The notes under the pieces were generated by a model, which saw only the letters and a list, made by a program, of their open reading frames with translations, was not told where the DNA came from and did not search any database. This document shows positions 45-57,573 of a DNA stretch of 64,000 nucleotides, in pieces. A program made the position numbers and the translations under genes. How positions within the stretch are numbered: position 1 is the first letter of the stretch; the number at the start of each line of letters is the position of its first letter. This DNA comes from a virus (taxonomy: Duplodnaviria > Heunggongvirae > Uroviricota > Caudoviricetes), in IMG/VR virus record IMGVR_UViG_3300047393_000100. The stretch is one strand, 5' to 3'.

Positions 45-267
45 CGAACAGGGTTTCACACTTAGACAGCCAACTATGGAAAGTGTAATTGGGATGCTTC
101 AGTCACTGGTGTGATAGACGGTCTGTAAAATCGTTCTGTAAGAGGGTATGGTTCGATTCCACTACAAGGCACTGTCGGCGCCCAAAGGACGCATGACCTG
201 GTCAGAGATTTATTCTTGCAAACTCAATACCTAAAGTTGAGCTGCCAATCTACGGGATTGGCTTTAT

Positions 268-343
268 GCCTCCATGGGCAAACTGGAAAAGCCGTCTGAC
301 TTAGGATCAGAAGATTTTGTGGGTTCAACTCCCACTGGAGGTA
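268..343 (+). tRNA. tRNA with anticodon UAG, class I architecture
   Basis: Acceptor GCCTCCA/TGGAGGT, anticodon stem TCTGA/TCAGA, loop CTTAGGA with U33, and a perfect T-arm GTGGG/TTCAACT/CCCAC; 76 nt. A UAG anticodon would decode Leu, yet there is no long variable arm. Confidence 0.5.
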
Positions 344-346
344 CGA

Positions 347-470
347 AGGAGAGGTAGTGAAGCTGTAGTTGAGAAGTAGAGTGTATTAATTGTCGAAAAA
401 GGGTTTATAGTAAACAGACGTCACTCATTGCACTTAACCAGAAACCCTGAAATACCCGAAGCCTCTCTTA
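347..470 (+). ncRNA. conserved structured non-coding element, copy A (paralog of 57335-57417)
   Basis: About 75 nt alignable to copy B. The stem GGGTTT..AAACCC here corresponds to GGGTTA..TAACCC in copy B, a compensatory change. It contains the shared core ACTCATTGCACT. Confidence 0.35.
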
Positions 471-473
471 AAT

Positions 474-547
474 AGTCAATTAGCTCAGTTGGTTAGAGCA
501 TCGCACTGATACTGCGAGGGTCGTAAGTTCGAGTCTTACATTGACTA
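474..547 (+). tRNA. tRNA-Ile (anticodon GAT)
   Basis: Acceptor AGTCAAT/ATTGACT, D-arm GCTC-AGTTGGTTA-GAGC, anticodon arm TCGCA-CTGATAC-TGCGA, T-arm GTAAG-TTCGAGT-CTTAC; 74 nt. Confidence 0.8.
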
Positions 548-552
548 CATTA

Positions 553-639
553 TGGAAAGTAAACTGAATAGGATTCAGGACCGCTTGCTAAGCGAATCGT
601 GCATTAATTCGCATGGGGATCGATACCTCTGCTTTCCAC
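553..639 (+). ncRNA. non-canonical tRNA-like element
   Basis: 7-bp terminal pairing TGGAAAG/CTTTCCA separated by 87 nt. Internal hairpins CTGAAT-AGG-ATTCAG and GCGAAT..ATTCGC. The T-loop-like GGATCGATACC is atypical. Confidence 0.25.
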
Positions 640-824
640 AATTACCGATTTGATCTAGGATCGAAAATATCTCATAAGTATTTTCAGACAAGAGCGTAAC
701 TTGTAGTCGGTACAATATGGTGTTTGAAGCTTTTTAGTGAAGTGCAAGACTGTGAATCTTGAGAAGACGGGGCAGTACCGTCCTAACACCCAAATTATTA
801 CCAATATATAAATAAGAATTAAAC

Positions 825-895
825 TGGTCTATGGTGTAATGGTAACACAACGGTTTTTGGTGCAGTCGTTTGGGGTTCGAGTCCCTATAGACCAA
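825..895 (+). tRNA. tRNA-Gln (anticodon TTG)
   Basis: Acceptor TGGTCTA/TAGACCA, D-arm GTGT-AATGGTA-ACAC, anticodon arm ACGGT-TTTTGGT-GCAGT with one mismatch, T-arm TGGGG-TTCGAGT-CCCTA; 71 nt. It overlaps the 5' end of listed ORF 839..1417, which therefore probably starts at 911. Confidence 0.6.
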
Positions 896-910
896 CAAAT
901 TATAATTAAA

Positions 911-1417
911 ATGGACAAATATTCAAAGACGCTCGTGCTTGATTCGAGTTTTATGCCAAGAAGCATTATTAGTAGTTTGCGAGCTTTCTCAATTATTTAT
1001 AAAGGAAATGCAAGTGTCGTTGAAAACTTTGATGTACAGTTTAAAGTCGCAGACCCAGAACTTGTAATTTATAAACCTTCAGTTATTAGAGTACCTAAGT
1101 ACGTGCATACTCGCATTCATAAAGTTCCATTAACAAGAGAAAATATTTTTAAAAGAGATAATCATACATGTGTATATTGTGGTTATAATAATAATGCCAG
1201 AAAACTTACAATTGACCATGTGATTCCACAATCAAAGGGTGGACCTAATACATGGGATAATCTTGTTACTGCATGTGGAAAATGTAATGGTGAAAAGGCA
1301 GATTTAACATTAGAGGAGTTTGGTAAAGAAATTCCAGTACCTGTAAGACCTCATTATTTAATGTTAATGAAATCAGTATCATATATCCCAGATAATTGGA
1401 GACCTTATTTATTTTAA
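911..1417 (+). CDS. HNH endonuclease
   Basis: HNH motifs CVYCGY..DHVIPQSKGG..WDNLVTACGKCN. Start moved to the ATG at 911 because 839-895 is a tRNA. Confidence 0.8.
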   Translation: MDKYSKTLVLDSSFMPRSIISSLRAFSIIYKGNASVVENFDVQFKVADPELVIYKPSVIRVPKYVHTRIHKVPLTRENIFKRDNHTCVYCGYNNNARKLTIDHVIPQSKGGPNTWDNLVTACGKCNGEKADLTLEEFGKEIPVPVRPHYLMLMKSVSYIPDNWRPYLF

Positions 1418-6360: not shown

Positions 6361-6404
6361 CAAAAAATTAACACTTATTTTTTTCAAGTATTAAATATTA
6401 TAGT

Positions 6405-6437
6405 TATATTTACATATCTAATTTAAACAAATAAAAT
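6405..6437 (+). promoter_or_regulatory. promoter-like box
   Basis: TATATTTACATATCTAATTTAAACAAATAAAATC upstream of the ATG at 6439. Confidence 0.5.
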
Positions 6438-6438
6438 C

Positions 6439-7383
6439 ATGAAAAAATTATTATTATTATCTGCAATTATATTATTAATGTCATGTGATCCTGGAGAAAT
6501 TCAAGTAGATCCTAAACCTACTCCTCCAATCGTATCAGATGCTCCATTAGCACCAGATCCTATAATCGATACGCCAGTTCCTACTATAAATCTTTCAAAT
6601 TTACCAGAATGGACATTGATTCCAGACCAAAAATTTGAGAATGCATTAATTGCACAGGGAATTGACGATATTTCCGATGGAAGGGTATTAACCAGTAAGA
6701 TATCAACATTGAAAGTATTAAAGGTTGAACACGCTGGAGTAACTAATACTACTGGTCTTGAGAATTTCTTAAGTTTAGAATTTCTTTCTCTATGGGATAA
6801 TCCAATAACTTCAATAGATCTTACACATAATGTTCTGTTACAAATACTAGGATTAAGCGAAACATATCTGGAAACCGTGGATTTATCTAAAAATACAGAA
6901 TTATATAGCGCAGAATTTCAAGGAAATAGTGATAAAAATGAAGATCCAAACTATCCATGGGGTAAAACTAGAGGATTTACATCATTGGATTTTAGTCATA
7001 ATCTTAAACTTCAAAGAATTTATGTAATGTGCAATAGATTAACATCGCTAAATGTTAGAATGTTACCTAAACTAACTGATTTATGGATAGGATGTTCATA
7101 TACAGGACGCACTGGAGGAAATTATATTAAAACAATAGATCTTACTGGTAATCCACGCCTTGGAACATTCATAGTGGCAGGAGGAACCTTTGAATATATT
7201 GATGCCAGAAACGCAAATAGCTCAGGTAATATAATGGTTAATGTTGTCCTTAAAAATAATCCAGATCTAACAAAGGTTAGAGTTACAAATTTAGCGTTAA
7301 TTAAATCTGTTAATGCAATGACTAGACCTGAAGGTCAAAGAGAACCATGGTATTTTGATGCACATACTATTTTATTTGAATAA
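6439..7383 (+). CDS. lipoprotein with leucine-rich-repeat-like segments
   Basis: Signal plus lipobox LLMSC. Repeated LxxLxLxxN-like units. Confidence 0.5.
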   Translation: MKKLLLLSAIILLMSCDPGEIQVDPKPTPPIVSDAPLAPDPIIDTPVPTINLSNLPEWTLIPDQKFENALIAQGIDDISDGRVLTSKISTLKVLKVEHAGVTNTTGLENFLSLEFLSLWDNPITSIDLTHNVLLQILGLSETYLETVDLSKNTELYSAEFQGNSDKNEDPNYPWGKTRGFTSLDFSHNLKLQRIYVMCNRLTSLNVRMLPKLTDLWIGCSYTGRTGGNYIKTIDLTGNPRLGTFIVAGGTFEYIDARNANSSGNIMVNVVLKNNPDLTKVRVTNLALIKSVNAMTRPEGQREPWYFDAHTILFE

Positions 7384-14016: not shown

Positions 14017-15063
14017 ATGAAAGTATATTGTACATTACCATTTACCAGAATGAAAATAAATTCTGATGGAGAATATCATTCATGTTGCCACCAGAATATA
14101 CATTATGGAAATATAATAAAGGAGGATATTACAATAAAGGAAGCATTTGATAAAGACATTATCAAAGATATTCAAAATTCTATTTTAGGAAATAATTTAC
14201 ACGATGCTTGTAATACCCCTAGGTGTCCATTTTATTCAAAACGAAATGAATTAGATACGCTATTCATGAACGATGTAGAATATACGGACCAACCTATTGA
14301 TTTTGAACTTTCATTACCATCTTCGCATTGTAATATAGGAGGAACAGACCCTACACCTGATACTGCATGCCCAATGTGCCCTAGGGCATCTGTGTCTTTT
14401 ATTGAGCATGAACCATCCATTGATTTAATAGAAATAGTATTGGATAAATTAAAACCTATTATGAATAAGGTTAAAATACTAAATATACAGGGAATCGCTG
14501 AACCGTTTTGGAAAGGAAAAGTATTTGAAATTTTAAATAAATTAGATTTTAAAAAATATAGAAATGTTATACATTTTTGGAGTTTTACAAATGGAACAGT
14601 ATTTGGAGATAAAATACAAGATAAATTTATAGAAATGGTAGGATTTGCTAGTTTAGGATTTTCAATAGATGCAGCAACACCCGAAACGTATATTAAAGTA
14701 AGAAAATTAAATTACTTTAAAACTATTGAGAGAAATTTAAAAAAATATTTCGAAAAAACAAAGAATCTTAAAAATGAAAATGGTTGGTTACATTCGTTTA
14801 CGACATATAATATCAATATGATAAATGTGCATGAAATGGAACAAATGGTCAGGTGGTCACATGGGATAGGGGCAGATAGAACAGAATTTACATTAACATT
14901 TATAAGTGCTCCTGAAATTCCAATAGGTACCGAAAATATATGTAATAAAGATAATTGGCATATATTTTGGGAAGGACAACAAAGGGCGATGCATGTTGCA
15001 AAGGAATTAAATTATAGTGTAACATTTTATGTTCCATTTCATGGAGGATTTTTAAATAATTAA
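14017..15063 (+). CDS. Cys-rich protein (possible Fe-S or radical-SAM-related)
   Basis: Several Cys clusters (SCCHQ, CNTPRCP, CNIGG...CPMCP). No canonical CxxxCxxC. Confidence 0.45.
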   Translation: MKVYCTLPFTRMKINSDGEYHSCCHQNIHYGNIIKEDITIKEAFDKDIIKDIQNSILGNNLHDACNTPRCPFYSKRNELDTLFMNDVEYTDQPIDFELSLPSSHCNIGGTDPTPDTACPMCPRASVSFIEHEPSIDLIEIVLDKLKPIMNKVKILNIQGIAEPFWKGKVFEILNKLDFKKYRNVIHFWSFTNGTVFGDKIQDKFIEMVGFASLGFSIDAATPETYIKVRKLNYFKTIERNLKKYFEKTKNLKNENGWLHSFTTYNINMINVHEMEQMVRWSHGIGADRTEFTLTFISAPEIPIGTENICNKDNWHIFWEGQQRAMHVAKELNYSVTFYVPFHGGFLNN

Positions 15064-15065
15064 TT

Positions 15066-15968
15066 ATGAGAGATTTTATAGTTGCCAGGTCTTGGCGCAC
15101 GTTTGACAAACAACAATTAGTTGCACTTACTGAAATATGTAAAATAATTGTTCAACAAGAAAGATATATTGATAATGCCGAAATACATTTAAATATTAAT
15201 AATCCAAATCATGAAATGCAGGCAAAGGCATTTCAATTACTTCCCCCTGGTGTTAGTTTATTTTTTTATGATAACGCTGAACTTGAACAATACGTAAGGG
15301 ATTGTGGAATTGAACCAGACATAGAAAAGTACAGAGAATGGGAATGGATATACCATATCATATTACACCATAAATTATATCATGAAAGAGGTAATGATTA
15401 CGTTTTAACATATGATGATGATATTTTATTTAATGATGTTGATTTTTCAGATATAGTACATTTCGTAACTACTAAAATTCCATTTAGTATTGCGGATCAA
15501 TTTGTTGATGCAGATAAACCAATGATGGGTAAACTTATTGAAAAATTTGGCAATGAATTATTTGAAAATTATTATCGATGTCATGGTAATGATAAATCTG
15601 GAAACTCTGGTTTTATGGGATTTAACAACAGTACGATGTCTCTGTTTACTTCTAAGGAGGATTTTCAATGGTTGATTAATTCATTTATATATAAGAGATG
15701 GGACCACATGACGATGCAGGGTACATCATGGGACACCTATAAGGTATTAATACAGGAACAATCATTACTATCAATATTAAATAGAGCGTATTCAAATACG
15801 GAACATATCATACTATTACATAGTGATGGGTATATTTTGACAACCGACATGGAATTAATGAAACAGAGTAAAATAATGCATTTTATTTCAACTACAAAAT
15901 ATTCCGAAGAATACACGCAACTTATTGAGAATAAGTATACTATATTACAAGAGGTATTTAAAATATAA
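15066..15968 (+). CDS. hypothetical protein
   Basis: ORF. Confidence 0.5.
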   Translation: MRDFIVARSWRTFDKQQLVALTEICKIIVQQERYIDNAEIHLNINNPNHEMQAKAFQLLPPGVSLFFYDNAELEQYVRDCGIEPDIEKYREWEWIYHIILHHKLYHERGNDYVLTYDDDILFNDVDFSDIVHFVTTKIPFSIADQFVDADKPMMGKLIEKFGNELFENYYRCHGNDKSGNSGFMGFNNSTMSLFTSKEDFQWLINSFIYKRWDHMTMQGTSWDTYKVLIQEQSLLSILNRAYSNTEHIILLHSDGYILTTDMELMKQSKIMHFISTTKYSEEYTQLIENKYTILQEVFKI

Positions 15969-15998
15969 ATTGTTAATAACTTTCTTTGAAAATAAGTA

Positions 15999-16027
15999 GC
16001 CAAACATTTTTTTGTTTGGCTTTTTTT
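15999..16027 (+). terminator. Rho-independent terminator
   Basis: GCCAAAC-ATTTTTTT-GTTTGGC plus T7; duplicate of 2561-2589. Confidence 0.7.
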
Positions 16028-16030
16028 GTT

Positions 16031-16057
16031 TAGATTTACATTATAATTAAAACAAAT
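16031..16057 (+). promoter_or_regulatory. promoter-like box
   Basis: TAGATTTACATTATAATTAAAACAAAT. Confidence 0.55.
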
Positions 16058-16070
16058 AAAAAACACCATT

Positions 16071-17145: not shown

Positions 17146-17562
17146 ATGGAAAAACTATCAAACTTAAAATGGTACCTTGCACTTCCAATATGGTATGCAA
17201 TAATGACCACTTTGACATTTATAATATGGTTTGGACTTTCTCAAGCTATGGGTGGACCTGAAGATGTATTTACAAATCCAGTAACCTGTCTTAAATTTTC
17301 AAGTCTAATGGCTATTCCATTTACTGCAATAACCTTATTAACGATTAATATGTCCAACTCTAGTCAGAAATTCTGGGATAGAGCCGAAGAGGTTAGTGAA
17401 AGAATTGAAGCTGCTGAAACTACAAAGGAACTGCATGAGATAATCAATGATGAATTTATAAAAGGTGGAACTCTTAGAAGATTATCAGGCGGAGGACCCC
17501 ACTATGAGAAAATGAAACAAATGATAGCCATTATAAAAACCAAACTTAAATACGTAAAATAA
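17146..17562 (+). CDS. membrane protein
   Basis: Two TM helices; ends in the IVNNFL-type repeat. Confidence 0.45.
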   Translation: MEKLSNLKWYLALPIWYAIMTTLTFIIWFGLSQAMGGPEDVFTNPVTCLKFSSLMAIPFTAITLLTINMSNSSQKFWDRAEEVSERIEAAETTKELHEIINDEFIKGGTLRRLSGGGPHYEKMKQMIAIIKTKLKYVK

Positions 17563-17613
17563 AATTGTTAATAACTTTTTGCAAATAAGTTTTCACGGGT
17601 CAAATTTAATAGC

Positions 17614-17640
17614 TATATTTACATTATAATTAAAACAAAT
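17614..17640 (+). promoter_or_regulatory. promoter-like box
   Basis: TATATTTACATTATAATTAAAACAAAT, preceded by the long repeat from 17566. Confidence 0.6.
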
Positions 17641-20093: not shown

Positions 20094-20459
20094 ATGGAAT
20101 CAATATTAGATAAAAAGATAGATTTTAAGGATGCGATTGATTCAATTAAAAGAGTACTTGGAATCTTATTTCCATGGGTTAGTCTTTTTAAAAGTATTAA
20201 AAATGAAACGTTTTATTCAAACACATTATATGATATTAAACAGGGGCATCCTGTTATAATTAGATCTGAAAAGATAATGTCTCAATATGAAAAAATGTAT
20301 GGCAGAATAGATTCGCAATTCGCATTAGATACTGTTAAGATGGGAATTAAGCGTGAAATCTGTGATGAAATCATGAGAAGTGATTTATTTGAATGGCAAA
20401 TCGAAGGTACTACAATGGGAACCAAAGTTGCTGCAAGAATAATTATTAATAAGTTTTAA
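20094..20459 (+). CDS. hypothetical protein
   Basis: ORF. Confidence 0.45.
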   Translation: MESILDKKIDFKDAIDSIKRVLGILFPWVSLFKSIKNETFYSNTLYDIKQGHPVIIRSEKIMSQYEKMYGRIDSQFALDTVKMGIKREICDEIMRSDLFEWQIEGTTMGTKVAARIIINKF

Positions 20460-20499
20460 AAATAAGTATTAAAACATTTTTTATATCGAAACTTTTAGT

Positions 20500-20530
20500 T
20501 ATATTTACATATAAATTAAAACAAACATAC
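20500..20530 (+). promoter_or_regulatory. promoter-like box
   Basis: TATATTTACATATAAATTAAAACAAACATACA. Confidence 0.55.
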
Positions 20531-20531
20531 A

Positions 20532-21410
20532 ATGATAATATTAGATTTAGTTAACCCGGAAAAATCGCAAATCAAGTACAAAATTAGTCAATTCCCAGAT
20601 GGTCAACAAACAGTAGACCTTACAGAATGGAATGACTTATTGAGATATACTGATGCTGTAAAAATTAGCTCACGTTTAAATAGTTTTAAAGATTTAGAAT
20701 TAATTATTTGTGCAACCACTGCGATCAGAAATATTAAACCTACCAGAGAAATTATCCTTTACGTTCCTTATTTTGTAGGTGCTCGTTCAGATCGCAAATT
20801 TAGCGAAGGTGGAGTTAATTATCTAAAACAGGTAATTTGTCCAATTATTAATTCTTTAAATTTTATAACTGTAATTACGTTAGATCCACACTCTGATGTA
20901 TTGGAAGCATGCTTGAATAACTATGAAAAATTAGATAATCACATACTAGCAAAATATGCACTTTCAAATATAGATAATAAAAAAGATGCTCAAGAAAGAA
21001 TTTGTTTAGTAAGCCCAGATGCTGGAGCATATAAGAAAATCTTTGATGTTGCTAAAAAGTTTGGAATTCAAAATGTTGTTACTGCAAATAAAGTAAGAGA
21101 CATGAAAACTGGTAATATTCTTAAGACCGAGGTTCCAAACCTACCAGGAATTGTTGGAGATGATTTACAATATGTAATCATCGATGATATTTGCGATGGT
21201 GGTAGAACATTTAATGAACTAGCAAAGGCAATTAGAGAACAACGAAGTGATGCAAAGATCTATTTAGTAGTAACCCATGGTATCTTTAGCGCTGGATTTA
21301 AAGAATTATCACAATACTTCGAAGGAATTTATACAACAAATAGTTATCGAGAAGTTGCAGATAATGAATATGAAGAAAAAACAAACACAATAGTATTTAA
21401 AGTAATATAA
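20532..21410 (+). CDS. ribose-phosphate pyrophosphokinase (PRPP synthetase)-like protein
   Basis: PRTase-type fold with VIIDDICDGGRT (the PRPP-binding loop, D-D-x-x-D-x-G) and a Prs-like layout. Could equally be an ADP-ribose-processing Prs homolog. Confidence 0.6.
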   Translation: MIILDLVNPEKSQIKYKISQFPDGQQTVDLTEWNDLLRYTDAVKISSRLNSFKDLELIICATTAIRNIKPTREIILYVPYFVGARSDRKFSEGGVNYLKQVICPIINSLNFITVITLDPHSDVLEACLNNYEKLDNHILAKYALSNIDNKKDAQERICLVSPDAGAYKKIFDVAKKFGIQNVVTANKVRDMKTGNILKTEVPNLPGIVGDDLQYVIIDDICDGGRTFNELAKAIREQRSDAKIYLVVTHGIFSAGFKELSQYFEGIYTTNSYREVADNEYEEKTNTIVFKVI

Positions 21411-26951: not shown

Positions 26952-27013
26952 AATTGTTAATAACTTTTTGAAAAGAATTCACTAAAAGTTTTCAATATAT
27001 CGAATATTATAGT

Positions 27014-27045
27014 TATATTTACATTATAATTAAAACAAACAAAAT
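27014..27045 (+). promoter_or_regulatory. promoter-like box
   Basis: Consensus box preceded by the long repeat from 26954. Confidence 0.6.
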
Positions 27046-27267
27046 ATGAAAACACTTTTAACAATTACAGTTCTAGGAATAGGATTATTATTTTTAGCAA
27101 TCTATTATGAACAAGGAAGAGATCCTTATGAAGAAGGAATGCATTTGGATTATAAAATAGAAATAGTAAATGGCTTTGTATATAAGAGCCTAGATCGACA
27201 TAGGGGAACAATACAAGTACTGAATTCCGATGGAACTCCATTGCGAGATGGTAAAAAAATATACTAA
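27046..27267 (+). CDS. small membrane protein
   Basis: One TM helix. Confidence 0.4.
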   Translation: MKTLLTITVLGIGLLFLAIYYEQGRDPYEEGMHLDYKIEIVNGFVYKSLDRHRGTIQVLNSDGTPLRDGKKIY

Positions 27268-27299: not shown

Positions 27300-28865
27300 A
27301 TGAACCCATTATTTTTAACAGACGGTTACAAAACAGGACATCACCAACAATATCCAAAAGGAACTACGTTGGTTTATTCTAACTTCACTCCTCGTAGTAA
27401 CAAGTATGCTCCTAAAGGTTGCGATCAATTAGTATCATTTGGTCAACAAATGGTAGTTAAACAAATTCACGAAGCATTCGATAAAGATTTCTTTAGTAAA
27501 CATAAAGACGAAGTTTGTGGAGAAATGAAACGCGAATTGTCAATGTACTTAAATACTGACTATGATGTTAGTCACTTTGAAGCTTTGCATGATTTAGGTT
27601 ATTTGCCTATCATTGTTAAGTCAATTAAAGAAGGTAGTTTAGTACCAATGAGAGTTCCAGTATTGACAATTTACAATACACATCCAGATTTCTATTGGAT
27701 TACAAACTATTTAGAAACAGTTATTTCTAACTTATTGTGGAAACCAATGACTTCTGCAACTATGGCGCATTCTTATCGTAAGTTATTTACTTCATGGCAA
27801 GAAAAAACCGATGCTGAAAAAGGTTGGTTCGTAGATTGGCAAGCACATGATTTCTCAATGAGAGGTTTAGATTCTATTGATGCTACTATTAGTTCAGGTT
27901 TGGGTCACTTAACAAGTTTCTCAGGTTCAGACAGTTTACCAGCAATCTTTGGAGCAAGAAAATTCTATAATGAAACTGGATTTGTGTCCGGTTCGGTAAA
28001 TGCAACTGAACATTCAGTTATGTGTGCTGGTAGTAAAGAAGATGAGGTTGGAACATTTAGAAACTTGATGGAAACATATCCAACTGGAATTCTTTCAATA
28101 GTCAGCGACACATGGGATCTTTGGAAAGTTTGTACCAGTCACTTAGTTATCTTAAAAGAAGAGATTTTAGCAAGAGAAGGTAAAGTAGTTATTAGACCTG
28201 ACTCTGGAGATCCAGTCGATATTATTTGTGGATTAAATACACAACCAAAGGGTGTTAAAGGAACTAATGGACCTGGACCAGAAGTTACTACAAATGCAGA
28301 ATTGGACAAAGAACATCCTGCACAAAAAGGTGTTATTGAATTATTATGGGATGTATTTGGTGGAGAAATCAACGAACAAGGTTATAAAGTATTAGATCCT
28401 CACATTGGAGCAATATATGGAGATTCAATCACATTAGACCGTGCTGAACAAATCTTTACAAGATTAGAAGCAAAGGGATTCGCAAGTACAAACATAGTTT
28501 TAGGCGTAGGTTCATTTACATATCAATTTAACACAAGAGATACATTCGGGTTTGCAATGAAAGCCACTTATGTTGAAATAAAAGAACATTTTAGAACAGT
28601 TAAAGACGAGAATGGTAATTATACACACTCTGAAGAAATCATTATAGGTCGTGAAATCTTCAAAGATCCAATCACCGATGATGGTATTAAGAAATCTGCA
28701 AAAGGTTTATTAAGAGTTGTTGGAGATGAAACATGTATGTTATTAGAAGATCAATGTACATGGGACGATGAAGCTACTGGTAAATTAAAGGTAATTTATA
28801 ATAATGGTCAATTTGAAAACCAAACTACTTTGACAGAAATTCGTGAACGTTTAACAAATTCATAA
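27300..28865 (+). CDS. nicotinamide phosphoribosyltransferase (NAMPT/NadV) family
   Basis: N-terminal NP(I/L)(F/L)xTD(G/S)YK hallmark (MNPLFLTDGYKTGHHQQYP) and ~520 aa length, typical of NadV. Confidence 0.75.
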   Translation: MNPLFLTDGYKTGHHQQYPKGTTLVYSNFTPRSNKYAPKGCDQLVSFGQQMVVKQIHEAFDKDFFSKHKDEVCGEMKRELSMYLNTDYDVSHFEALHDLGYLPIIVKSIKEGSLVPMRVPVLTIYNTHPDFYWITNYLETVISNLLWKPMTSATMAHSYRKLFTSWQEKTDAEKGWFVDWQAHDFSMRGLDSIDATISSGLGHLTSFSGSDSLPAIFGARKFYNETGFVSGSVNATEHSVMCAGSKEDEVGTFRNLMETYPTGILSIVSDTWDLWKVCTSHLVILKEEILAREGKVVIRPDSGDPVDIICGLNTQPKGVKGTNGPGPEVTTNAELDKEHPAQKGVIELLWDVFGGEINEQGYKVLDPHIGAIYGDSITLDRAEQIFTRLEAKGFASTNIVLGVGSFTYQFNTRDTFGFAMKATYVEIKEHFRTVKDENGNYTHSEEIIIGREIFKDPITDDGIKKSAKGLLRVVGDETCMLLEDQCTWDDEATGKLKVIYNNGQFENQTTLTEIRERLTNS

Positions 28866-30647: not shown

Positions 30648-31283
30648 ATGGAACCAGAAAAAGACATATTTGATCAGTGGGCTGAAGAACGTGAAAAAAA
30701 ATCATGGATAGTAAGAAAGTTAGAATACATTCCAATTTGGTGGAATCATGATGGCAGATATCTACATAAAGAAATTAAGGTAGGAATCAAAAACATTTGG
30801 TATTGGTTGCCTATTATTTGGAAAGATCGTAATTGGGATTCTCATTATATCTTTGAAATCATGATTCATAAAATCAAAGCACAATCCAAATATATCGGAG
30901 AACGCGGTATGCATACACGATCCGAAAGGGATGCAGAAATTATGATGACATGTGTTCGTCTAATGAAATTAATTCAAGATGATTTTTATAGTTCTGAGTA
31001 TTCAGATTATCATACAACAAAGCATTGGTTTGAAGACGTACCCGGAAAGGAAGGATATAGTTCATGGGAGTCTAAATTAATGGAAGAAAACTTTGATGAT
31101 TTCTTTAAAAAATATCCATTAATCTATAAAAGAGTTATCAAAGGGGAAGGACCATTTAATTTAGAAGGGCGCGACGATGACAAACAAGTCATTGCAATGA
31201 ATATTGGCCATATTAATCATAATAGAGCAAGTAAATTGTTATTTAACTTAATGGAAGAAAATATCCAACGATGGTGGGATTAA
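30648..31283 (+). CDS. hypothetical protein
   Basis: ORF. Confidence 0.45.
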   Translation: MEPEKDIFDQWAEEREKKSWIVRKLEYIPIWWNHDGRYLHKEIKVGIKNIWYWLPIIWKDRNWDSHYIFEIMIHKIKAQSKYIGERGMHTRSERDAEIMMTCVRLMKLIQDDFYSSEYSDYHTTKHWFEDVPGKEGYSSWESKLMEENFDDFFKKYPLIYKRVIKGEGPFNLEGRDDDKQVIAMNIGHINHNRASKLLFNLMEENIQRWWD

Positions 31284-31333
31284 ATTGTTAATAACTTTAT
31301 AAAGATAAGTTTTTACAATTCAAATATTATAGT

Positions 31334-31365
31334 TATATTTACATTATAATTAAAACAACATATTA
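31334..31365 (+). promoter_or_regulatory. promoter-like box
   Basis: Consensus box; long repeat from 31285. Confidence 0.6.
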
Positions 31366-32479: not shown

Positions 32480-32538
32480 CTGTTAATAACTTTTTGAAAA
32501 CATGTGTAAATAAATTTTCATGGTTCAAATATTATAGT

Positions 32539-32570
32539 TATATTTACATTATAATTAAAACAAACAAATT
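32539..32570 (+). promoter_or_regulatory. promoter-like box
   Basis: Consensus box. Confidence 0.6.
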
Positions 32571-32795
32571 ATGATACGAAGTAAACAAGAAACTAACCAA
32601 CCAATTATCATAGACCTTACCGGTCCTGATGGAAATGCATTTGCGCTTATGGCCTACGCTAAAAGATTTGCAACTCAATTATGTTGGAAAGATAAAGGTT
32701 CTGCACTTATCGAAGATATGATGAGTAGTGATTACGAACATCTTTTGGAAGTATTCGATAATGCATTTGGAGAATTTGTAATCTTAGAAAGATAG
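32571..32795 (+). CDS. hypothetical protein
   Basis: ORF. Confidence 0.4.
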   Translation: MIRSKQETNQPIIIDLTGPDGNAFALMAYAKRFATQLCWKDKGSALIEDMMSSDYEHLLEVFDNAFGEFVILER

Positions 32796-36903: not shown

Positions 36904-37466
36904 TGAATTGCCTGATAGTTATAGCGCATCCAGATCGTACGTCCTTTGAGAATACAAAACTCATAAAGACTTTGAAAATGCGATATACAAAGGATGGACA
37001 TAAGGTAAATATAGTTGATCTTTATCTTGATGATTATAATCCATCTTCATTTGTTGGAGATCTTTCAAATATTAATGATAACGCATTTGCAAAATCATAT
37101 AGACATTTAATAAAAACGTCAAACCATATTTGGATTATTTCACCAACAAGATGGTTATCAATGTCTCCTTTAGTCGAAGGATTTATTGACCAGGTATTTA
37201 TCAGTGGGTTTGCATTTAAGGACGGTAGAGGACTTCTAGGTGATAGAAAACTTGGAGTAGTATTAACATCTACTTCACCTAATAATGTAAGATGGAAGAC
37301 CTTAGATATAATGTGGGTAAGACTTAAGTTAATGGTATTTCCTCAAGTATTTAAGTTTAAAAACATTAAAATATATCAAATTTGGAATGTTAAAAAATCT
37401 ACAAACCTAGAACTCAATACACACCTACAGAGAATAAATCAAATTGTTAATAACTTTTTGAAATAA
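36903..37466 (+). CDS. flavodoxin-like NAD(P)H-dependent oxidoreductase (MdaB/NQO-like)
   Basis: N-terminal LIVIAHPDRTSFENTKL resembles the flavodoxin-like quinone reductase family. The C-terminus runs into the IVNNFLK repeat. Confidence 0.45.
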   Translation: MNCLIVIAHPDRTSFENTKLIKTLKMRYTKDGHKVNIVDLYLDDYNPSSFVGDLSNINDNAFAKSYRHLIKTSNHIWIISPTRWLSMSPLVEGFIDQVFISGFAFKDGRGLLGDRKLGVVLTSTSPNNVRWKTLDIMWVRLKLMVFPQVFKFKNIKIYQIWNVKKSTNLELNTHLQRINQIVNNFLK

Positions 37467-37492
37467 ATGTTTCACAGTTCAAATATTATAGT

Positions 37493-37524
37493 TATATTTA
37501 CATTATAATTAAAACAAACAAATT
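37493..37524 (+). promoter_or_regulatory. promoter-like box
   Basis: Consensus box; long repeat from 37444. Confidence 0.6.
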
Positions 37525-38817
37525 ATGTACTTAGCCGAAATACAAGAGTTTATAGATGCTCAGAATTCTACAAATTCAAATACTGACAAATTAAATGTTT
37601 TAAAGCAATACGCAGATAATGAATCTGTAAAAAAAGCGCTTGAATATACATATAACACATTTAAACAGTATGGTGTTACTTCAACAAATTGCAAGAAACT
37701 TAGCCATCTTTCGAGTTATGGTTTTTCTTCTCTTTTTGATTTATTAGATGATTTAAATTCTAGACATCTTACCGGACATAATGCAATTAGTTGTGTTAAT
37801 GGATTTGTAGAGGCAAATAAAAGACACGAGGATTTAATCTTTTCTATTATTGATAGAAATCTTAAAACTCGTTCAACAACCTCCATGATTAACAAGGTGA
37901 TTCCTAATTTAATTCCAACGTTTGATGTTGCTTTGGCAAATTCATATGATGAAAAAACTGCAAAGAAAGTTAACATGAATGAAGATGTTTGGTACGTTAG
38001 TAGAAAATTAGATGGATGCAGATGTATTTGTATTATTGATGAAAATGGAGAACCTACTTATTTTTCAAGAGGAGGAAATGAATTTCTAACACTTAAAAAT
38101 TTAGATGCTGAAATCATTTCGTTAGGTCTTAAGAATATGGTAATTGATGGAGAAATTTGTATGATGGATGCAAATGGAAATGAGAATTTCCAAGGTATCA
38201 TTAAAGAAATCAAACGCAAAGATCATACGATTAAAAATCCATTCTTTTATATGTTTGATATTCTAACAATGGATGCGTTTATTACAAAGGAAGGAACAAC
38301 TCCATTTTCAATTAGAAATGTTCAATTAGACAATTTATTCTTTGAAAAGGAATTTAAAAATATTGGATATTTAGAACAAACGATTTTGATTGATGAAAAA
38401 ATGTTAACCTATTACATTGGAGTAGCCAAAGAGCAGGGATGGGAAGGACTTATGTTACGCAAAGATGCAACATACCAAGGAAAACGTAGTAATGATATTT
38501 TAAAGGTTAAGCAATTTTATGATGCAGAATATATAGTAGTTGATTTAGAGAATGCAATCAATAGGGTTATAGTTGATGGTAAAGAGGTTGAAGAGATGAT
38601 GTTAAAAAATATCATTATAGAACATAAAGGAAGCAGAGTGCAAGTTGGTAGTGGATTTTCACATGAACAAAAACGTCATTACTTTACAAATCCTAAAGAA
38701 ATTCTTGGAAAACAAGTGACGGTACAGTATTTCGAAGAAACACATAACCAGAACGGCGGTACAAGCTTAAGATTTCCAACTATAAAAACAGTATGGGAAA
38801 CTAAAAGAAATATCTAA
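37525..38817 (+). CDS. ATP-dependent DNA ligase
   Basis: Motif I KLDGCRC (KxDG) plus downstream adenylation and OB-like motifs. Confidence 0.7.
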   Translation: MYLAEIQEFIDAQNSTNSNTDKLNVLKQYADNESVKKALEYTYNTFKQYGVTSTNCKKLSHLSSYGFSSLFDLLDDLNSRHLTGHNAISCVNGFVEANKRHEDLIFSIIDRNLKTRSTTSMINKVIPNLIPTFDVALANSYDEKTAKKVNMNEDVWYVSRKLDGCRCICIIDENGEPTYFSRGGNEFLTLKNLDAEIISLGLKNMVIDGEICMMDANGNENFQGIIKEIKRKDHTIKNPFFYMFDILTMDAFITKEGTTPFSIRNVQLDNLFFEKEFKNIGYLEQTILIDEKMLTYYIGVAKEQGWEGLMLRKDATYQGKRSNDILKVKQFYDAEYIVVDLENAINRVIVDGKEVEEMMLKNIIIEHKGSRVQVGSGFSHEQKRHYFTNPKEILGKQVTVQYFEETHNQNGGTSLRFPTIKTVWETKRNI

Positions 38818-50258: not shown

Positions 50259-50362
50259 GAGAAATGTTATATTTTTAAGGATATTTATCCACTACTAGGG
50301 CATCTTTTTGATCATTTTTGAAAATAAATAGAAAAAAGTTTTCACGGGTCAAAAACTTTAGT

Positions 50363-50397
50363 TATATTTACATTATAATTAAAACAAACAAATAAAA
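50363..50397 (+). promoter_or_regulatory. promoter-like box
   Basis: Consensus box upstream of a 27-aa membrane ORF at 50399. Confidence 0.55.
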
Positions 50398-52313: not shown

Positions 52314-52339
52314 ATGTTTCATGGTTCAAATATTATAGT

Positions 52340-52374
52340 TATATTTACATTATAATTAAAACAAACAAATACAC
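52340..52374 (+). promoter_or_regulatory. promoter-like box
   Basis: Consensus box; long repeat from 52291. Confidence 0.6.
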
Positions 52375-53789: not shown

Positions 53790-53831
53790 TAACTTTTTGA
53801 AATAAATGTTTCCCATGTCAAATATAATAGT

Positions 53832-53863
53832 TATATTTACATTATAATTAAAACAAACAATAT
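53832..53863 (+). promoter_or_regulatory. promoter-like box
   Basis: Consensus box. Confidence 0.6.
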
Positions 53864-54799: not shown

Positions 54800-54841
54800 T
54801 AACTTTTTGAAATAAATGTTTCATGTTTCAAATATTATAGT

Positions 54842-54873
54842 TATATTTACATTATAATTAAAACAAATACATT
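54842..54873 (+). promoter_or_regulatory. promoter-like box
   Basis: Consensus box. Confidence 0.6.
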
Positions 54874-57240: not shown

Positions 57241-57440
57241 AAGAACCTGCTACATAACACGGCGCCAAATTAATTGTGACATGTACTATCTGGAAGGTCA
57301 GGTCAGGTTCTTTAGATTTACCAATGCTCGCTGTTAATTGAGAGGTAGAGGGTATTAATTTCCGAACAAGGGTTAATAGTAGGAAGACGCCACTCATTGC
57401 ACTCAATCAGTAACCCTGCTCTTGTTCTTCTAATGTGAGA
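57241..57440 (+). ncRNA. conserved structured non-coding element, copy B
   Basis: 9-bp stem AAGAACCTG..CAGGTTCTT. The segment 57345-57417 aligns to 347-470 with a compensated stem (GGGTTA..TAACCC). Upstream parts also align to 160-267. Confidence 0.35.
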
Positions 57441-57482
57441 AATCCTGTTAGTTAATAAGAAAGACCAAGGTTGGTAAATTTT

Positions 57483-57573
57483 AATCGGTTGGTGTAAGAT
57501 CTGGAGTTCTAGACGATGGTAACATGGGCGGCCTGGCGCTGCTATGATAAGGGTTCGAATCCCTTACCGATTT
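57483..57573 (+). tRNA. type II-length tRNA-like gene, identity unresolved
   Basis: Perfect 7-bp acceptor AATCGGT/ACCGATT and T-arm AAGGG-TTCGAAT-CCCTT. I could not find a canonical anticodon arm among the 91 nt. Confidence 0.35.

What the first reader, a model, noticed from the sequence alone, without database searches (positions are those of the whole stretch)
150..470. Two homologous ~200-nt structured non-coding elements at the edges of tRNA clusters, with compensatory base changes
Region 347-470 (copy A) aligns to 57335-57417 (copy B): GAGAGGTAG...GTATTAATT..CGAA.AAGGGTT.ATAGTA..AGACG.CACTCATTGCACT.AA.CAG.AACCCTG. The predicted stem is GGGTTT/AAACCC in A and GGGTTA/TAACCC in B; that double substitution preserves pairing, which is classic RNA covariation. 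Further upstream, 57241-57334 (with a 9-bp stem AAGAACCTG/CAGGTTCTT) is recognisably similar to 160-267. In copy A a tRNA (268-343) sits between the two homologous blocks, whereas B is contiguous. I could not assign a class; group I intron, RNase P, 6S and tmRNA signatures are not evident.
Basis: seen in the sequence. Interest (0 to 1): 0.65.

Follow-up and report, generated by a model that had tools for sequence, protein, structure and literature searches.

The report
Unannotated pseudoknotted RNA in phage tRNA clusters
The two look-alike stretches are two copies of a real, previously unannotated small structured RNA gene that many unrelated bacteriophages carry inside their tRNA gene clusters; its function is unknown, as it still is for the small stable RNAs annotated in the tRNA clusters of phages T4 and T5.

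Summary
The core observation holds. Window 362-449 and 57330-57418 are homologous (83% over 89 nt, E 6e-20), and the GGGTTT/AAACCC versus GGGTTA/TAACCC change is a true compensatory change.

The unit is about 121 nt in copy A (348-468). Copy B is about 162 nt (57317-57478) because of a 41-nt hairpin insertion. The claimed upstream similarity is at chance level, and no tRNA interrupts copy A.

Both copies belong to a large family: more than 140 distinct members in uncultivated viral contigs. GenBank phages also carry it: T4-like, T5-like, Vequintavirinae, jumbo Klebsiella, Pseudomonas, Rhizobium and a crAss-like Cellulophaga phage. It is not annotated as an RNA in any record examined.

- **Shared core:** a closing helix, a CUG/CAG helix, a variable stem, and a loop that pairs with the strand just 3' of that stem (a pseudoknot), plus invariant junctions AGUGAAG and GAAAGACCCGAA.
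- **Covariation:** 98% of cells paired against 37-46% in shifted controls; 22 of 36 pairs change on both sides.
- **Context:** members sit on the tRNA strand, often 2-9 nt from tRNAs.
- **Known families:** no Rfam family matches, and the T4 rnaC/rnaD and T5 stable RNAs are not homologues.

Most likely it is a stable trans-acting RNA excised together with the tRNAs. Its function is unknown.

The parts
345..473 (+). Copy A: the whole RNA gene unit, filling the gap between tRNA-Leu(UAG) and tRNA-Ile(GAU)
   Evidence: Covariance-model hit 339-473: 147.9 bits with R1 and 128.3 bits with R2. Flanking tRNAs at 268-344 and 474-548.
348..355 (+). A, closing helix H1, 5' strand GGAGAGGT. It pairs with 461-468.
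   Evidence: All 8 H1 pairs change on both sides across the family; 98.2% of cells paired. 103 distinct H1 helices among 121 parsed members.
356..362 (+). A, conserved 5' junction AGUGAAG
   Evidence: AGTGAAG in 65 of 121 parsed members; the rest are mostly AGTTAAG or AGTAAAG (10 each) or other variants ending in AAG/ACG.
363..373 (+). A, helices H2a (CUG, 363-365) and H2b (GUUGAG, 368-373), 5' strands. They pair with 439-441 and 433-438.
   Evidence: RNAalifold predicts both independently. Four of 6 H2b pairs change on both sides. H2a is CUG/CAG in 116 members and CUC/GAG in 4 enterobacterial-phage members.
376..383 (+). A, helix H3, 5' strand GUAGAGUG. It pairs with 422-426 and 429-431, with an AU bulge at 427-428. 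H3 is specific to the long form.
   Evidence: Predicted by RNAalifold. The pairs are mostly invariant or G-C to G-U, so support is weak. Other family classes have different sequences here.
391..394 (+). A, helix H5, 5' strand UGUC. It pairs with 413-416; in A the C394/A413 pair is a mismatch.
   Evidence: All 4 pairs change on both sides; 99.5% of cells paired.
400..406 (+). A, pseudoknot helix H4, 5' strand AGGGUUU, in the 18-nt apical loop. It pairs with 442-448.
   Evidence: Three of 7 pairs change on both sides, on an alignment whose model did not include this helix. At least 6 of 7 bp in 121 of 121 parsed members, in about 8 complementary duplex types.
413..441 (+). A, 3' strands of H5 (413-416), H3 (422-431), H2b (433-438) and H2a (439-441)
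442..448 (+). A, pseudoknot helix H4, 3' strand AAACCCU, directly following the CAG of H2a
449..460 (+). A, conserved 3' junction GAAAUACCCGAA (family consensus GAAAGACCCGAA)
   Evidence: GAAAGACCCGAA in 78 of 121 parsed members; the others differ at 1-4 positions. It does not change when H4 changes.
461..468 (+). A, closing helix H1, 3' strand GCCUCUCU
57314..57481 (+). Copy B: the whole unit, with a different closing-helix sequence
   Evidence: Covariance-model hit 57308-57483, 108.1 bits. R2 hits the core 57331-57418 at 70.1 bits. The same 'type B' closing helix TTACCAA/TTGGTAA occurs in 11 other loci.
57317..57324 (+). B, H1 5' strand UUUACCAA. It pairs with 57471-57478 (UUGGUAAA).
   Evidence: Read from the sequence. 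The structure-guided alignment pairs these columns.
57331..57417 (+). B core: H2a 57331-33 / 57408-10; H2b 57337-42 / 57402-07; H3 57345-52 / 57391-57400; H5 57360-63 / 57382-85; pseudoknot H4 57369-75 (AGGGUUA) / 57411-17 (UAACCCU)
57419..57459 (+). B-specific 41-nt expansion hairpin, inserted between the H4 3' strand and the conserved AAAGACC junction
   Evidence: Absent from 8 type-B relatives. Three others (L078, L148, L082) carry unrelated hairpins at the same site. Each insert folds as a hairpin.
57460..57478 (+). B, 3' junction AAAGACCAAGG (57460-57470) and H1 3' strand UUGGUAAA (57471-57478)
268..344 (+). tRNA-Leu(UAG), ending 3-4 nt before copy A
   Evidence: ARAGORN; Rfam tRNA model, 57.1 bits.
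474..548 (+). tRNA-Ile(GAU), starting 5 nt after the closing helix of copy A
   Evidence: ARAGORN; Rfam tRNA model, 72.4 bits.
57484..57573 (+). Odd tRNA-like gene (8-bp acceptor-like stem, canonical T arm) starting 5 nt after copy B. Its counterpart follows the type-B element in 9 of the 11 other type-B loci (L007, L036, L040, L078, L085, L145, L148, L168, L178).
   Evidence: Not called as a tRNA at threshold.

Best explanation
Copies A and B are two paralogous genes for a small structured RNA of roughly 100-165 nt. The family is widespread in virulent, tRNA-encoding bacteriophages and has not been catalogued.

The gene sits like an extra 'tRNA gene' in the array. It is on the same strand as the tRNAs, a few nucleotides from its neighbours, and has no promoter-like or terminator-like site of its own between it and them. 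I infer that it is transcribed with the tRNAs. I also infer that the tRNA-processing enzymes set it free: RNase P cutting at the 5' end of the downstream tRNA, and 3'-end maturation of the upstream tRNA. This would mirror the small stable RNAs annotated in the T4 and T5 tRNA regions.

The mature RNA has these parts:
- a 6-13 bp closing helix (H1);
- a conserved asymmetric junction, with AGUGAAG on the 5' side and GAAAGACCCGAA on the 3' side;
- a 3-bp helix CUG/CAG that carries a stem of variable length and sequence;
- an apical loop whose AGGGUUU segment pairs with the AAACCCU that directly follows CAG (the pseudoknot).

The helices covary freely, while the junctions and loop are nearly invariant across phages of Proteobacteria, Bacteroidota and uncultivated aquatic hosts. 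From this I infer that the RNA acts in trans as a compactly folded RNA, and that its conserved single-stranded core contacts a highly conserved host component or builds a self-contained tertiary or oligomeric structure. It is not a cis-regulatory or DNA-level element.

Shown: homology, family, helices, pseudoknot complementarity, context, absence from Rfam. Inferred: co-transcription, processing, stability, action in trans. Unknown: the biochemical function.
For: - **Homology of A and B:**
- **Family size:**
  - nhmmer finds about 60 loci.
  - Model R1 hits 63 places in 64 sources and 90 places in 94 further IMG/VR loci.
- **Structure:**
  - RNAalifold independently predicts H2a, H2b, H3 and H5.
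  - On the MAFFT alignment, 93.4% of cells are paired against 39-47% in slid controls, 19 pairs change on both sides, and 0 of 500 shuffles reach this.
  - On the model alignment, 98.2% are paired against 37-46%, and 22 of 36 pairs change on both sides.
  - H4 was not part of the model, yet 3 of its 7 pairs covary.
  - In 121 parsed members H4 has at least 6 of 7 bp in all of them, and there are 103 distinct H1 helices.
- **RNA level and strand:**
  - G-U pairs are tolerated, e.g. UG:19 and UG:13.
  - All 167 nearest-neighbour tRNAs are on the element's strand.
- **Not coding:** stop codons in essentially every frame of every member.
- **Context:**
  - 87 of 145 distinct elements abut a same-strand tRNA within 15 nt.
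  - The flanking tRNAs are of more than 20 kinds.
  - In Erwinia phage Hena1 the element fills the 120-nt gap between tRNA-Gly and tRNA-Glu. In E. coli phage mogra it fills the 101-nt gap between tRNA-Met and tRNA-Arg.
  - No terminator-like site and no excess of promoter-like sites around either window copy.
- **Breadth:** cultured phages score 36-80 bits with R2, at E 1e-7 to 1e-21.
- **Exchange or host matching:** the mogra (T4-like) copy is 84-86% identical to copies in T5-like-sized (106-123 kb) Klebsiella and Pectobacterium phages, vB_Kpn_IME260, My1 and DU_PP_V. This points to horizontal exchange or matching to the host.
- **Precedent:** T4 rnaC/rnaD and the T5 RNAs I, III, IV and others are annotated as stable RNAs of unknown function inside tRNA clusters.
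Against: - No expression, end-mapping or stability data were available, so transcription and processing are inferred from context only.
- Single-sequence folding energy is unremarkable (z -0.29 for A, +1.06 for B). The case therefore rests on comparative evidence.
- About a third of members have no ARAGORN-detectable tRNA within 500 nt. tRNA-linked processing cannot be the universal route.
- H3 has almost no covariation.
- In long and in very short forms, the apical loop would have to fold back over 12-20 bp to pair in cis. The intramolecular reading of H4 is therefore not secure.
- No function can be derived from the sequence.
Confidence: 0.75

Rival explanations
1. Self-assembling RNA. The loop/junction complementarity (H4) forms between molecules, not within one. 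The apical loop of one RNA pairs with the AAACCCU strand at the base of the next, head to tail.
For: - The H4 3' strand is contiguous with the 3' strand of the main stem (CAG-AAACCCU), while the H4 5' strand sits at the tip of that same stem.
- In the short class the loop is 8 nt, with 7 of them in H4 and linkers of 1 and 0 nt, on top of a stem of about 12-15 bp. In the long classes the linkers are 5 and 6 nt on top of 17-23 bp.
- Stem length varies two-fold across the family while H4 is kept. Pairing in trans tolerates this automatically.
- Phage RNAs found near tRNA islands (ROOL, GOLLD) form homo-oligomers (PMC12286853).
Against: - Covariation cannot tell cis from trans.
- Internal loops near the middle of the stem could act as a hinge and allow an intramolecular fold-back with arms of similar length.
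- A sub-class with a 6-bp stem and 10-12 / 7-8-nt linkers can form the pseudoknot in cis without strain.
- No experimental data.
Confidence: 0.15
2. Self-cleaving ribozyme or dedicated processing module. It would help cut the polycistronic tRNA transcript, as the HDV-like theta ribozymes next to phage tRNAs are proposed to do.
For: - Immediate adjacency to tRNAs.
- A compact pseudoknotted core with invariant purine-rich junctions.
- Precedent for ribozymes next to phage tRNAs (PMC10879173, seen).
Against: - No match to any ribozyme family in Rfam 15, even at E<=10.
- The topology (H1 > H2 > loop, with the loop pairing to the H2-H1 junction) is not the nested double pseudoknot of HDV-like ribozymes.
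- The flanking tRNAs already supply RNase P and 3'-processing sites.
- A third of members are not next to tRNAs.
Confidence: 0.07
3. Cis-acting regulatory RNA (riboswitch or attenuator) controlling read-through into the downstream tRNAs or genes.
For: - Strong conservation of unpaired nucleotides, as in ligand-binding aptamers.
- In some members the H1 3' strand is followed by a U-rich run, e.g. GCCTCTCTTTTTT.
Against: - Downstream neighbours are of more than 20 different tRNA kinds, or unrelated ORFs.
- The spacing to the next tRNA is only 2-9 nt, leaving no room for an expression platform.
- No terminator-like site at either window copy.
- The U run is largely the pairing partner of an A-rich 5' flank, and many members lack it.
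Confidence: 0.05
4. Degenerate tRNA or tRNA-mimic decoy, for example a bait for anticodon nucleases or tRNA-modifying enzymes.
For: - It occupies a tRNA slot in the array and has a 7-8 bp terminal helix like an acceptor stem.
- The same window holds several degenerate tRNA-like genes.
Against: - No cloverleaf, no T arm (GTTCRANYC) and no anticodon arm.
- The Rfam tRNA model gives no hit on the element at E<=10, and ARAGORN gives none even at relaxed thresholds on this strand.
- The conserved core bears no resemblance to tRNA.
Confidence: 0.04
5. DNA-level element: a homing-endonuclease target, a recombination site or a repeat. The apparent structure would be incidental.
For: - HNH endonuclease genes lie in or near the tRNA clusters (911-1417).
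- The tRNA region shows recombination relative to the close relative L002.
Against: - Compensatory changes keep pairing in five helices, including many G-U pairs that would be C-A on the other strand.
- Orientation always matches the tRNAs, 167 of 167.
- Helix sequences diverge completely (103 different H1 helices) while pairing is kept.
Confidence: 0.02

Closest known systems
Phage T4 species 1 and species 2 RNAs (rnaC, rnaD)
   Same: They are small (139 and 119 nt) stable RNAs encoded inside the phage tRNA gene cluster, directly abutting tRNA-Arg, on the tRNA strand. T4's record annotates them only as 'small, stable RNA' with no function given (annotation in NC_000866). A T4-like phage (mogra, Mosigvirus) carries the present RNA next to its tRNA-Arg.
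   Different: No detectable homology. The best covariance-model score anywhere in the T4 tRNA region is 11.6-14 bits (E 0.5-1), and it does not fall on rnaC or rnaD. rnaC has a canonical T arm (CCGGGTTCGAATCCCGG), which the present RNA lacks. The signatures AGUGAAG and GAAAGACCCGAA are absent from both.
Phage T5 stable RNAs (RNAI, RNAIII, RNAIV, RNA1, RNA2, RNA2H, RNA3, RNAX)
   Same: They are 73-719-nt RNAs annotated as 'stable RNA with unknown functions', interspersed with the T5 tRNA genes on the same strand. T5-like phages carry the present RNA: Proteus PM135 (Demerecviridae), and by size Pectobacterium My1 and Klebsiella IME260.
   Different: T5 itself has no member. The best score is 14.7 bits (E 0.13), not on an annotated RNA, and R2 finds nothing at E<=1. 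The sequences of the T5 RNAs lack the family signature.
GOLLD and ROOL RNAs
   Same: They are structured RNAs of unknown function encoded by phages and prophages, 'often near tRNA islands', with pseudoknots supported by covariation (PMC12286853).
   Different: They are far larger; many GOLLD members exceed 800 nt. They are ornate multi-domain RNAs and have Rfam models, none of which matches here. They also occur in prophages in bacterial genomes. In contrast, a long-form pattern scan of 185,579 species genomes gave one hit that the model did not confirm, and 5,426 E. coli genomes gave none.
phi29 prohead (packaging) RNA, pRNA
   Same: It is a phage RNA of about 120-170 nt whose 5' and 3' ends pair in a terminal helix. 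It has two covarying complementary loop segments, first read as a pseudoknot and later shown to pair between molecules to form a ring. This is from my own knowledge, not tested here.
   Different: The Rfam pRNA model gives no hit. pRNA belongs to small phi29-like podoviruses and lies at the genome end, not in tRNA arrays. Its loop pairing is 4 bp, against 6-7 bp here.
HDV-like theta ribozymes next to phage tRNAs
   Same: They are small pseudoknotted RNAs found adjacent to viral tRNA genes (PMC10879173).
   Different: Theta ribozymes are minimal HDV-fold self-cleavers. The present RNA has a different helix order and about twice the size, and it gives no HDV-family hit in Rfam.

Membership tests
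tRNA (Rfam RF00005) | Cloverleaf with D, anticodon and T arms; match to the tRNA covariance model or ARAGORN | tested here: not met
   There is no tRNA hit on 345-473 or 57314-57481 on the + strand at the gathering threshold or at E<=10. ARAGORN finds none at default settings. At relaxed settings it gives only an implausible minus-strand call with a 71-nt intron.
T4 species 1 / species 2 RNAs (rnaC, rnaD) | Sequence and structure homology to the T4 RNAs | tested here: not met
   Models R1 and R2 were run on the T4 tRNA region with filters off. The best score was 11.6-14 bits, E 0.5-1, outside rnaC and rnaD.
T4 species 1 / species 2 RNAs (rnaC, rnaD) | Encoded within the phage tRNA cluster on the tRNA strand, abutting a tRNA | tested here: met
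T5 stable RNAs of unknown function | Sequence and structure homology to any annotated T5 RNA | tested here: not met
   R1 with filters off over T5 27-43 kb gave a best score of 14.7 bits at a site with no annotated RNA. R2 found nothing at E<=1.
GOLLD / ROOL | Match to the Rfam GOLLD or ROOL model; a large multi-domain RNA of several hundred nucleotides | tested here: not met
   No Rfam hit. The unit is bounded by tRNAs and is 121-162 nt long.
GOLLD / ROOL | Phage-encoded, near tRNA islands | tested here: met
   the literature statement is in PMC12286853.
phi29 pRNA | Match to the Rfam pRNA model; located in a phi29-like genome next to the packaging genes | tested here: not met
   No Rfam hit. 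The carriers seen are much larger: the window alone is 64 kb, the carrying contigs reach about 300 kb, and the cultured carriers are about 74-366 kb with tRNA arrays.
phi29 pRNA | Complementary loops pair between molecules to build a ring | not testable with these tools
   The complementarity is present and covaries. Sequence data cannot tell cis from trans.
HDV-like (theta) ribozymes | Nested double pseudoknot P1/P1.1/P2/P3/P4 with the cleavage site at the 5' end of P1; self-cleavage | tested here: not met
   The helix order here is H1-H2-(H3)-H5-[H4 5']-H5'-(H3')-H2'-[H4 3']-H1'. There is no HDV-family hit in Rfam. Cleavage activity could not be tested.
RNase P RNA | Conserved regions CR-I to CR-V with the P4 pseudoknot; match to the Rfam RNase P models | tested here: not met
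   No Rfam hit at E<=10. Only the abstract P1/P2/P4-like helix order is shared. H4 is a continuous 7-bp helix. The bulged U and the GGAAAGUCC motif that I recall for P4 (from memory) are not present.
Riboswitch / cis-regulatory leader | Consistent position in the 5' UTR of a functionally coherent gene set, with an expression platform | tested here: not met
   Downstream neighbours are more than 20 kinds of tRNA, at 2-9 nt, or unrelated ORFs. No terminator-like site is present.

The most novel reading that the evidence does not exclude
The element is a new class of phage 'accessory machine' RNA. Its invariant junction core and its loop-to-junction complementarity would let it act in one of two ways. 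It could self-assemble head to tail into rings or filaments, an RNA-only quaternary structure like pRNA, ROOL or GOLLD but built from a ~100-nt unit. Or it could form a new catalytic or ligand- or host-factor-binding fold aimed at a universally conserved host component of tRNA or translation metabolism. Homing-endonuclease-rich tRNA islands would then spread it horizontally between unrelated phage families.
Probability: 0.2. Interest if true: 0.85.

Novelty: new member of a known kind. Interest (0 to 1): 0.68.

Why it matters
Small stable RNAs of unknown function are still annotated as such inside the tRNA clusters of T4 and T5, and they look phage-specific. This family is different. One recognisable fold is shared by T4-like, T5-like, Vequintavirinae, jumbo, crAss-like and many uncultivated aquatic phages. 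It is not annotated as an RNA in any GenBank record examined, and it has no Rfam model.

That breadth has three consequences:
- A conserved role can now be tested in tractable systems, such as E. coli phage mogra, Klebsiella, Proteus and Pseudomonas phages.
- Annotators gain a new RNA model for gaps in tRNA arrays that are currently empty or mis-called as tiny ORFs.
- The family adds a compact example to the emerging theme that phage tRNA islands harbour structured RNAs. Some of those, ROOL and GOLLD, turned out to be self-assembling.

If the loop-junction pairing is intermolecular, or if the core binds a conserved host factor, the RNA would show a new way in which phages manipulate translation or tRNA biology.

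Tried and rejected
- **Known RNA families.** I ran Rfam 15 at the gathering threshold over the whole window and at E<=10 over both regions. Only tRNAs and noise came back.
- **Thermodynamic stability.** Single-sequence folds are no better than shuffles, so this is not useful evidence either way.
- **The upstream 'second block' (160-267 vs 57241-57334).** Smith-Waterman with shuffles and blastn both show chance-level similarity.
- **Region 177-267.** It is conserved only in three very close relatives, so nothing can be said about it.
- **Homology to T4 rnaC/rnaD and to the T5 stable RNAs.** Two covariance models, with filters off, found none.
- **Protein coding.** There are stop codons in all six frames of nearly all members.
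- **Alternative partner for the loop GGGU.** I considered the ACCC of the 3' junction. I rejected it because the junction stays GACCC when the loop changes to AAGGUUU or AAGGAUU, while the AAACCCU strand changes with the loop.
- **Cellular genomes:**
  - The pattern specific to the long form gave one hit among 185,579 species genomes, on a 7-kb contig of a metagenome-assembled genome. Neither model confirmed it.
  - The enterobacterial form is absent from 5,426 complete E. coli genomes.
- **Literature:**
  - The motif strings GAAAGACCCGAA and GAAAGACCCAAA occur in no phage or RNA-structure paper among those listed.
  - A catalogue of 8,495 candidate structured RNAs from IMG/VR (PMC10690425) may contain the element under an anonymous number. 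Its supplementary files are not held.
- **Loop-E / S-turn reading of AGUA...GAA next to H1.** This is plausible in many members, but the 3' GAA varies (AAA, ACA, AGA, GUA). I leave it as an idea only.
- **Resemblance to the RNase P P1/P2/P4 helix order.** It is topological only.
Full report
**1. Checking the observation**

Reading both regions and comparing them confirms a significant similarity: window 362-449 against 57330-57418, 83.1% identity over 89 nt, blastn E 6.5e-20. It is the only similarity between the two neighbourhoods apart from tRNA T-arm fragments.

The proposed second block of similarity (160-267 against 57241-57334) is not real. The best local alignment is 10 nt, and 588 of 2000 shuffles reach its score.

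ARAGORN and Rfam place tRNA-Leu(UAG) at 268-344 and tRNA-Ile(GAU) at 474-548. Copy A is exactly the 129-nt gap between two tRNA genes.

**2. Known classes**

Rfam 15 returns only tRNAs at the gathering threshold. In E-value mode up to E=10 it returns nothing credible on either copy. Single-sequence folding is no more stable than shuffled sequence (z -0.29 and +1.06). Any case for structure therefore has to come from comparison with homologues.

**3. Homologues**

- Exact-pattern scans of IMG/VR with conserved stretches, followed by nhmmer, gave about 60 homologous loci.
- Aligning them showed that the unit is longer than the BLAST core and is closed by a terminal helix. This helix differs completely in sequence between members: GAGAGG/CCUCUC, GAAAAG/CUUUUC, GGGGGU/ACCCCC, GGAGC/GCUCC. 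A second type has UUACCAA/UUGGUAA, and copy B belongs to it.
- Copy A is thus 348-468 and copy B is 57317-57478.
- Copy B, like three relatives, has an extra hairpin inserted at one fixed point, and its sequence is unrelated between loci (57419-57459). That behaviour is typical of a tolerated expansion site in a structured RNA.

**4. Secondary structure**

By eye, and independently by RNAalifold, the long form has a 3-bp helix CUG/CAG (H2a), a 6-bp helix (H2b), an 8-bp bulged helix (H3) and a 4-bp helix (H5) closing an 18-nt loop. The closing helix H1 and a pseudoknot helix H4 add to this. H4 joins AGGGUUU in the loop to the AAACCCU that immediately follows CAG.

- On the MAFFT alignment of 44 distinct sequences, 93.4% of cells are standard pairs, against 39-47% when the 3' partners are slid by 1-3 columns. 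Nineteen pairs change on both sides, and none of 500 shuffles reaches the observed values.
- On the covariance-model alignment, 98.2% are paired against 37-46%, and 22 of 36 pairs change on both sides. All 8 H1 pairs, 4 of 6 H2b pairs and all 4 H5 pairs covary.
- H4 was not in the model, so its support is unbiased: UA 31 / AU 19 / CG 2 at one pair, and GC 50 / AU 5 at another.
- H3 is nearly invariant, so it is only weakly supported.
- G-U pairs are common, which places the constraint on the + strand RNA rather than on the DNA.
- Every member has stop codons in essentially all six frames.

**5. A wider family**

A divergent second copy in locus L164 kept only H1, the junctions, H2a, H5 and H4. 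Model R1 matched 90 places in the 94 new loci, at scores from 154 down to about 18 bits.

Parsing 121 distinct sequences gives the universal core:

- H1 of 6-13 bp, with 103 different helices;
- the 5' junction AGUGAAG (variants AGUUAAG, AGUAAAG, AGUAACG);
- H2a, CUG/CAG in 116 members and CUC/GAG in 4 enterobacterial-phage members, which is a compensatory change;
- a middle stem whose length and sequence vary widely, with 41 to 81 nt between CUG and CAG;
- a loop strand pairing with the 7 nt after CAG, with at least 6 of 7 bp in all 121 members and about eight different complementary duplexes;
- the 3' junction GAAAGACCCGAA, identical in 78 of the 121.

**6. Cultured phages**

A 34-nt query of the 3' core found GenBank phages. 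Annotation look-ups, further BLAST searches and the two models confirmed members in the phages below.

| Phage | Group | R2 score (bits) |
|---|---|---|
| Pseudomonas Milchi / Astolliot | not classified further | 80.5 |
| Klebsiella RaK2 / K64-1 | jumbo | 73.7 |
| Proteus PM135 | Demerecviridae | 63.1 |
| Erwinia Hena1 | Vequintavirinae | 60.8 |
| Cellulophaga phi14:2 | crAss-like Steigviridae | 53.8 |
| E. coli mogra | Mosigvirus, T4-like | 47.7 |
| Rhizobium RHph_N28_1 | not classified further | 36.0 |

- The mogra element alone matches 51 phage records.
- In no record examined is the element annotated as an RNA. The locus is usually listed as 'none', and is occasionally overlapped by a 'hypothetical protein' or by the edge of a neighbouring tRNA call.
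- In Hena1 it fills the 120-nt gap between tRNA-Gly and tRNA-Glu. In mogra it fills the 101-nt gap between tRNA-Met and tRNA-Arg.
- The T4-like mogra copy is 84-86% identical to copies in T5-like-sized (106-123 kb) Klebsiella and Pectobacterium phages, vB_Kpn_IME260, My1 and DU_PP_V. I take this as a sign of exchange between phage families that share hosts, or of matching to the host.
- It is absent from 5,426 complete E. coli genomes.
- A pattern specific to the long form found a single hit among 185,579 species genomes, and the models did not confirm it.

**7. Context**

- Of 145 distinct elements with enough flank, 87 abut a same-strand tRNA within 15 nt of the model hit, and 98 have a tRNA within 500 nt.
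- All 167 nearest tRNAs are on the element's strand.
- The neighbours are of more than 20 tRNA kinds.
- Arrays hold up to 26 tRNAs per locus.
- Around both window copies there is no terminator-like site and no excess of promoter-like sites.
- About a third of members stand alone in intergenic DNA, usually still close to the tRNA region.

**8. How it most likely works**

Shown: a conserved, strand-specific, non-coding, pseudoknot-capable RNA fold that occupies a 'tRNA slot'.

Inferred:
- It is co-transcribed with the tRNAs.
- It is released by the enzymes that mature them: RNase P at the downstream tRNA, and 3'-end maturation of the upstream one. In copy A these would leave a 5' leader of at most 4 nt and a 5-nt 3' tail.
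- It accumulates as a stable RNA, like the stable RNAs annotated in the T4 and T5 tRNA regions.

Two considerations suggest what it contacts. The helices are free to change, while the junctions and loop are almost frozen across phages of very different hosts. No phage protein is common to all these lineages. The conserved core therefore probably contacts something universally conserved in the host, or builds a self-contained tertiary or quaternary structure.

One structural point deserves attention. The H4 3' strand continues directly from the 3' strand of the main stem, while the H4 5' strand sits at the tip of that same stem. In the shortest class, 7 of 8 loop nucleotides are in H4, with linkers of 1 and 0 nt above a stem of about 12-15 bp. 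In the long classes the linkers are 5 and 6 nt above 17-23 bp. Pairing in cis then needs a sharp hinge in the stem. Pairing in trans (head to tail, as in phi29 pRNA) would tolerate any stem length. Covariation cannot decide between these, so I keep the intramolecular pseudoknot as the default and give the assembly model about 15%.

**9. Comparison with known systems**

- **By genomic niche:** the closest are the T4 species 1/2 RNAs, the T5 stable RNAs, and the large GOLLD and ROOL RNAs, which are 'often near tRNA islands' in phages (PMC12286853).
- **By homology:** none of them. Two models with filters off find nothing on T4 rnaC/rnaD or on any T5 RNA, and the GOLLD and ROOL Rfam models do not match.
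- **HDV-like theta ribozymes** also sit next to phage tRNAs (PMC10879173), but they have a different fold.
- **Literature:** the family signature strings occur in no relevant paper in the text library. A 2023 catalogue of 8,495 anonymous candidate RNAs from IMG/VR (PMC10690425) could include the element, but I could not check this.

**10. Verdict**

The finding is real and more interesting than a two-copy curiosity. It is a widespread RNA family with no Rfam model and no RNA annotation in any record examined, and its structure is well supported. Its kind is familiar (stable RNAs embedded in phage tRNA clusters), and its function remains unknown. I therefore class it as a new member of a known kind, with interest 0.68.

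Noticed in passing
window 58047-58148, with at least 16 further copies (e.g. 2527-2619, 6381-6445, 15964-16059, 17562-17639, 20441-20539, 26952-27052, 31282-31365, 32481-32574, 37440-37527, 50315-50391, 52288-52368, 53780-53870, 54792-54878, 59235-59334): A ~100-nt intergenic repeat, 73-92% identical between copies, sits in front of + strand genes. It contains a sigma-70-like TTTACA-18-TATTAT at 58113-58142. It is probably a repeated promoter cassette.
   Followed up: partly
window 57484-57573, 57621-57677, 57863-57921, 57981-58043, and the partial one at 1-40: These are tRNA-like genes with acceptor-like stems and canonical T arms (GGTTCGAATCC) but aberrant or missing D and anticodon arms. 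ARAGORN does not call them, and they score below the Rfam tRNA threshold. The 57484-57573 type, with an 8-bp acceptor-like stem, follows the type-B element in nine of the eleven related type-B loci. T5 annotates comparable 'tRNA-like stable RNAs'.
   Followed up: partly
window 91-176, 554-639, 644-713, 720-790: Further low-scoring tRNAs lie in cluster 1: Tyr(GUA)-like, Ser(GCU), Met(CAU) and His(GUG). The His one scores 34.9 bits with Rfam, and ARAGORN finds the others only at relaxed thresholds. The cluster is therefore denser than the default annotation shows.
   Followed up: partly
window 149-161, compared with L002 (IMGVR_UViG_3300025896_000115) 1616-2675: L002 is 99.8% identical to window 149-1000, but it holds about 1.06 kb of extra tRNA-region DNA between the counterparts of window 161 and 149. 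Window 91-176 looks like a chimera of two tRNA-like genes joined around the T arm. That would be a deletion by recombination between tRNA genes.
   Followed up: partly
window 911-1417 (+), and 56953-57234 (+): An HNH endonuclease ORF lies directly after tRNA-Gln, inside the tRNA cluster (Pfam HNH_5, 2.8e-16). The small Cys-rich ORF just upstream of copy B resembles Endonuclease VII only weakly (21.6 bits, below the cut-off). T4 and T5 likewise have homing-endonuclease genes in their tRNA regions.
   Followed up: partly
window 177-267: This 91-nt spacer between the tRNA-like gene and tRNA-Leu folds into four small hairpins (z -1.1). It is 96-100% conserved, but only in three very close relatives, L002, L060 and L090. 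Whether it is another RNA cannot be judged.
   Followed up: partly
window 57241-57313: A hairpin with the 9-bp stem AAGAACCTG/CAGGTTCTT lies between the ORF stop codon and copy B. Among the loci fetched it recurs only in L148 (80% over 64 nt, at another position). In other type-B loci an ORF stop codon lies 5-8 nt before the closing helix.
   Followed up: no
locus L292 (Cellulophaga phage phi14:2, KC821624) 2414-2537, and L291 (RaK2): In phi14:2 the RNA overlaps a 36-aa 'hypothetical protein' annotated on the opposite strand (gp013). In some RaK2 relatives it is annotated as a hypothetical protein. These are probably spurious ORF calls over an RNA gene.
   Followed up: no
window 27300-28865, 37525-38817, 60839-62038, 14017-15063: Auxiliary genes typical of a large virulent phage are present: nicotinamide phosphoribosyltransferase, ATP-dependent DNA ligase, thymidylate synthase, and a radical-SAM protein (PHROGs). 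No close relative of the tRNA regions exists among GenBank phages.
   Followed up: no
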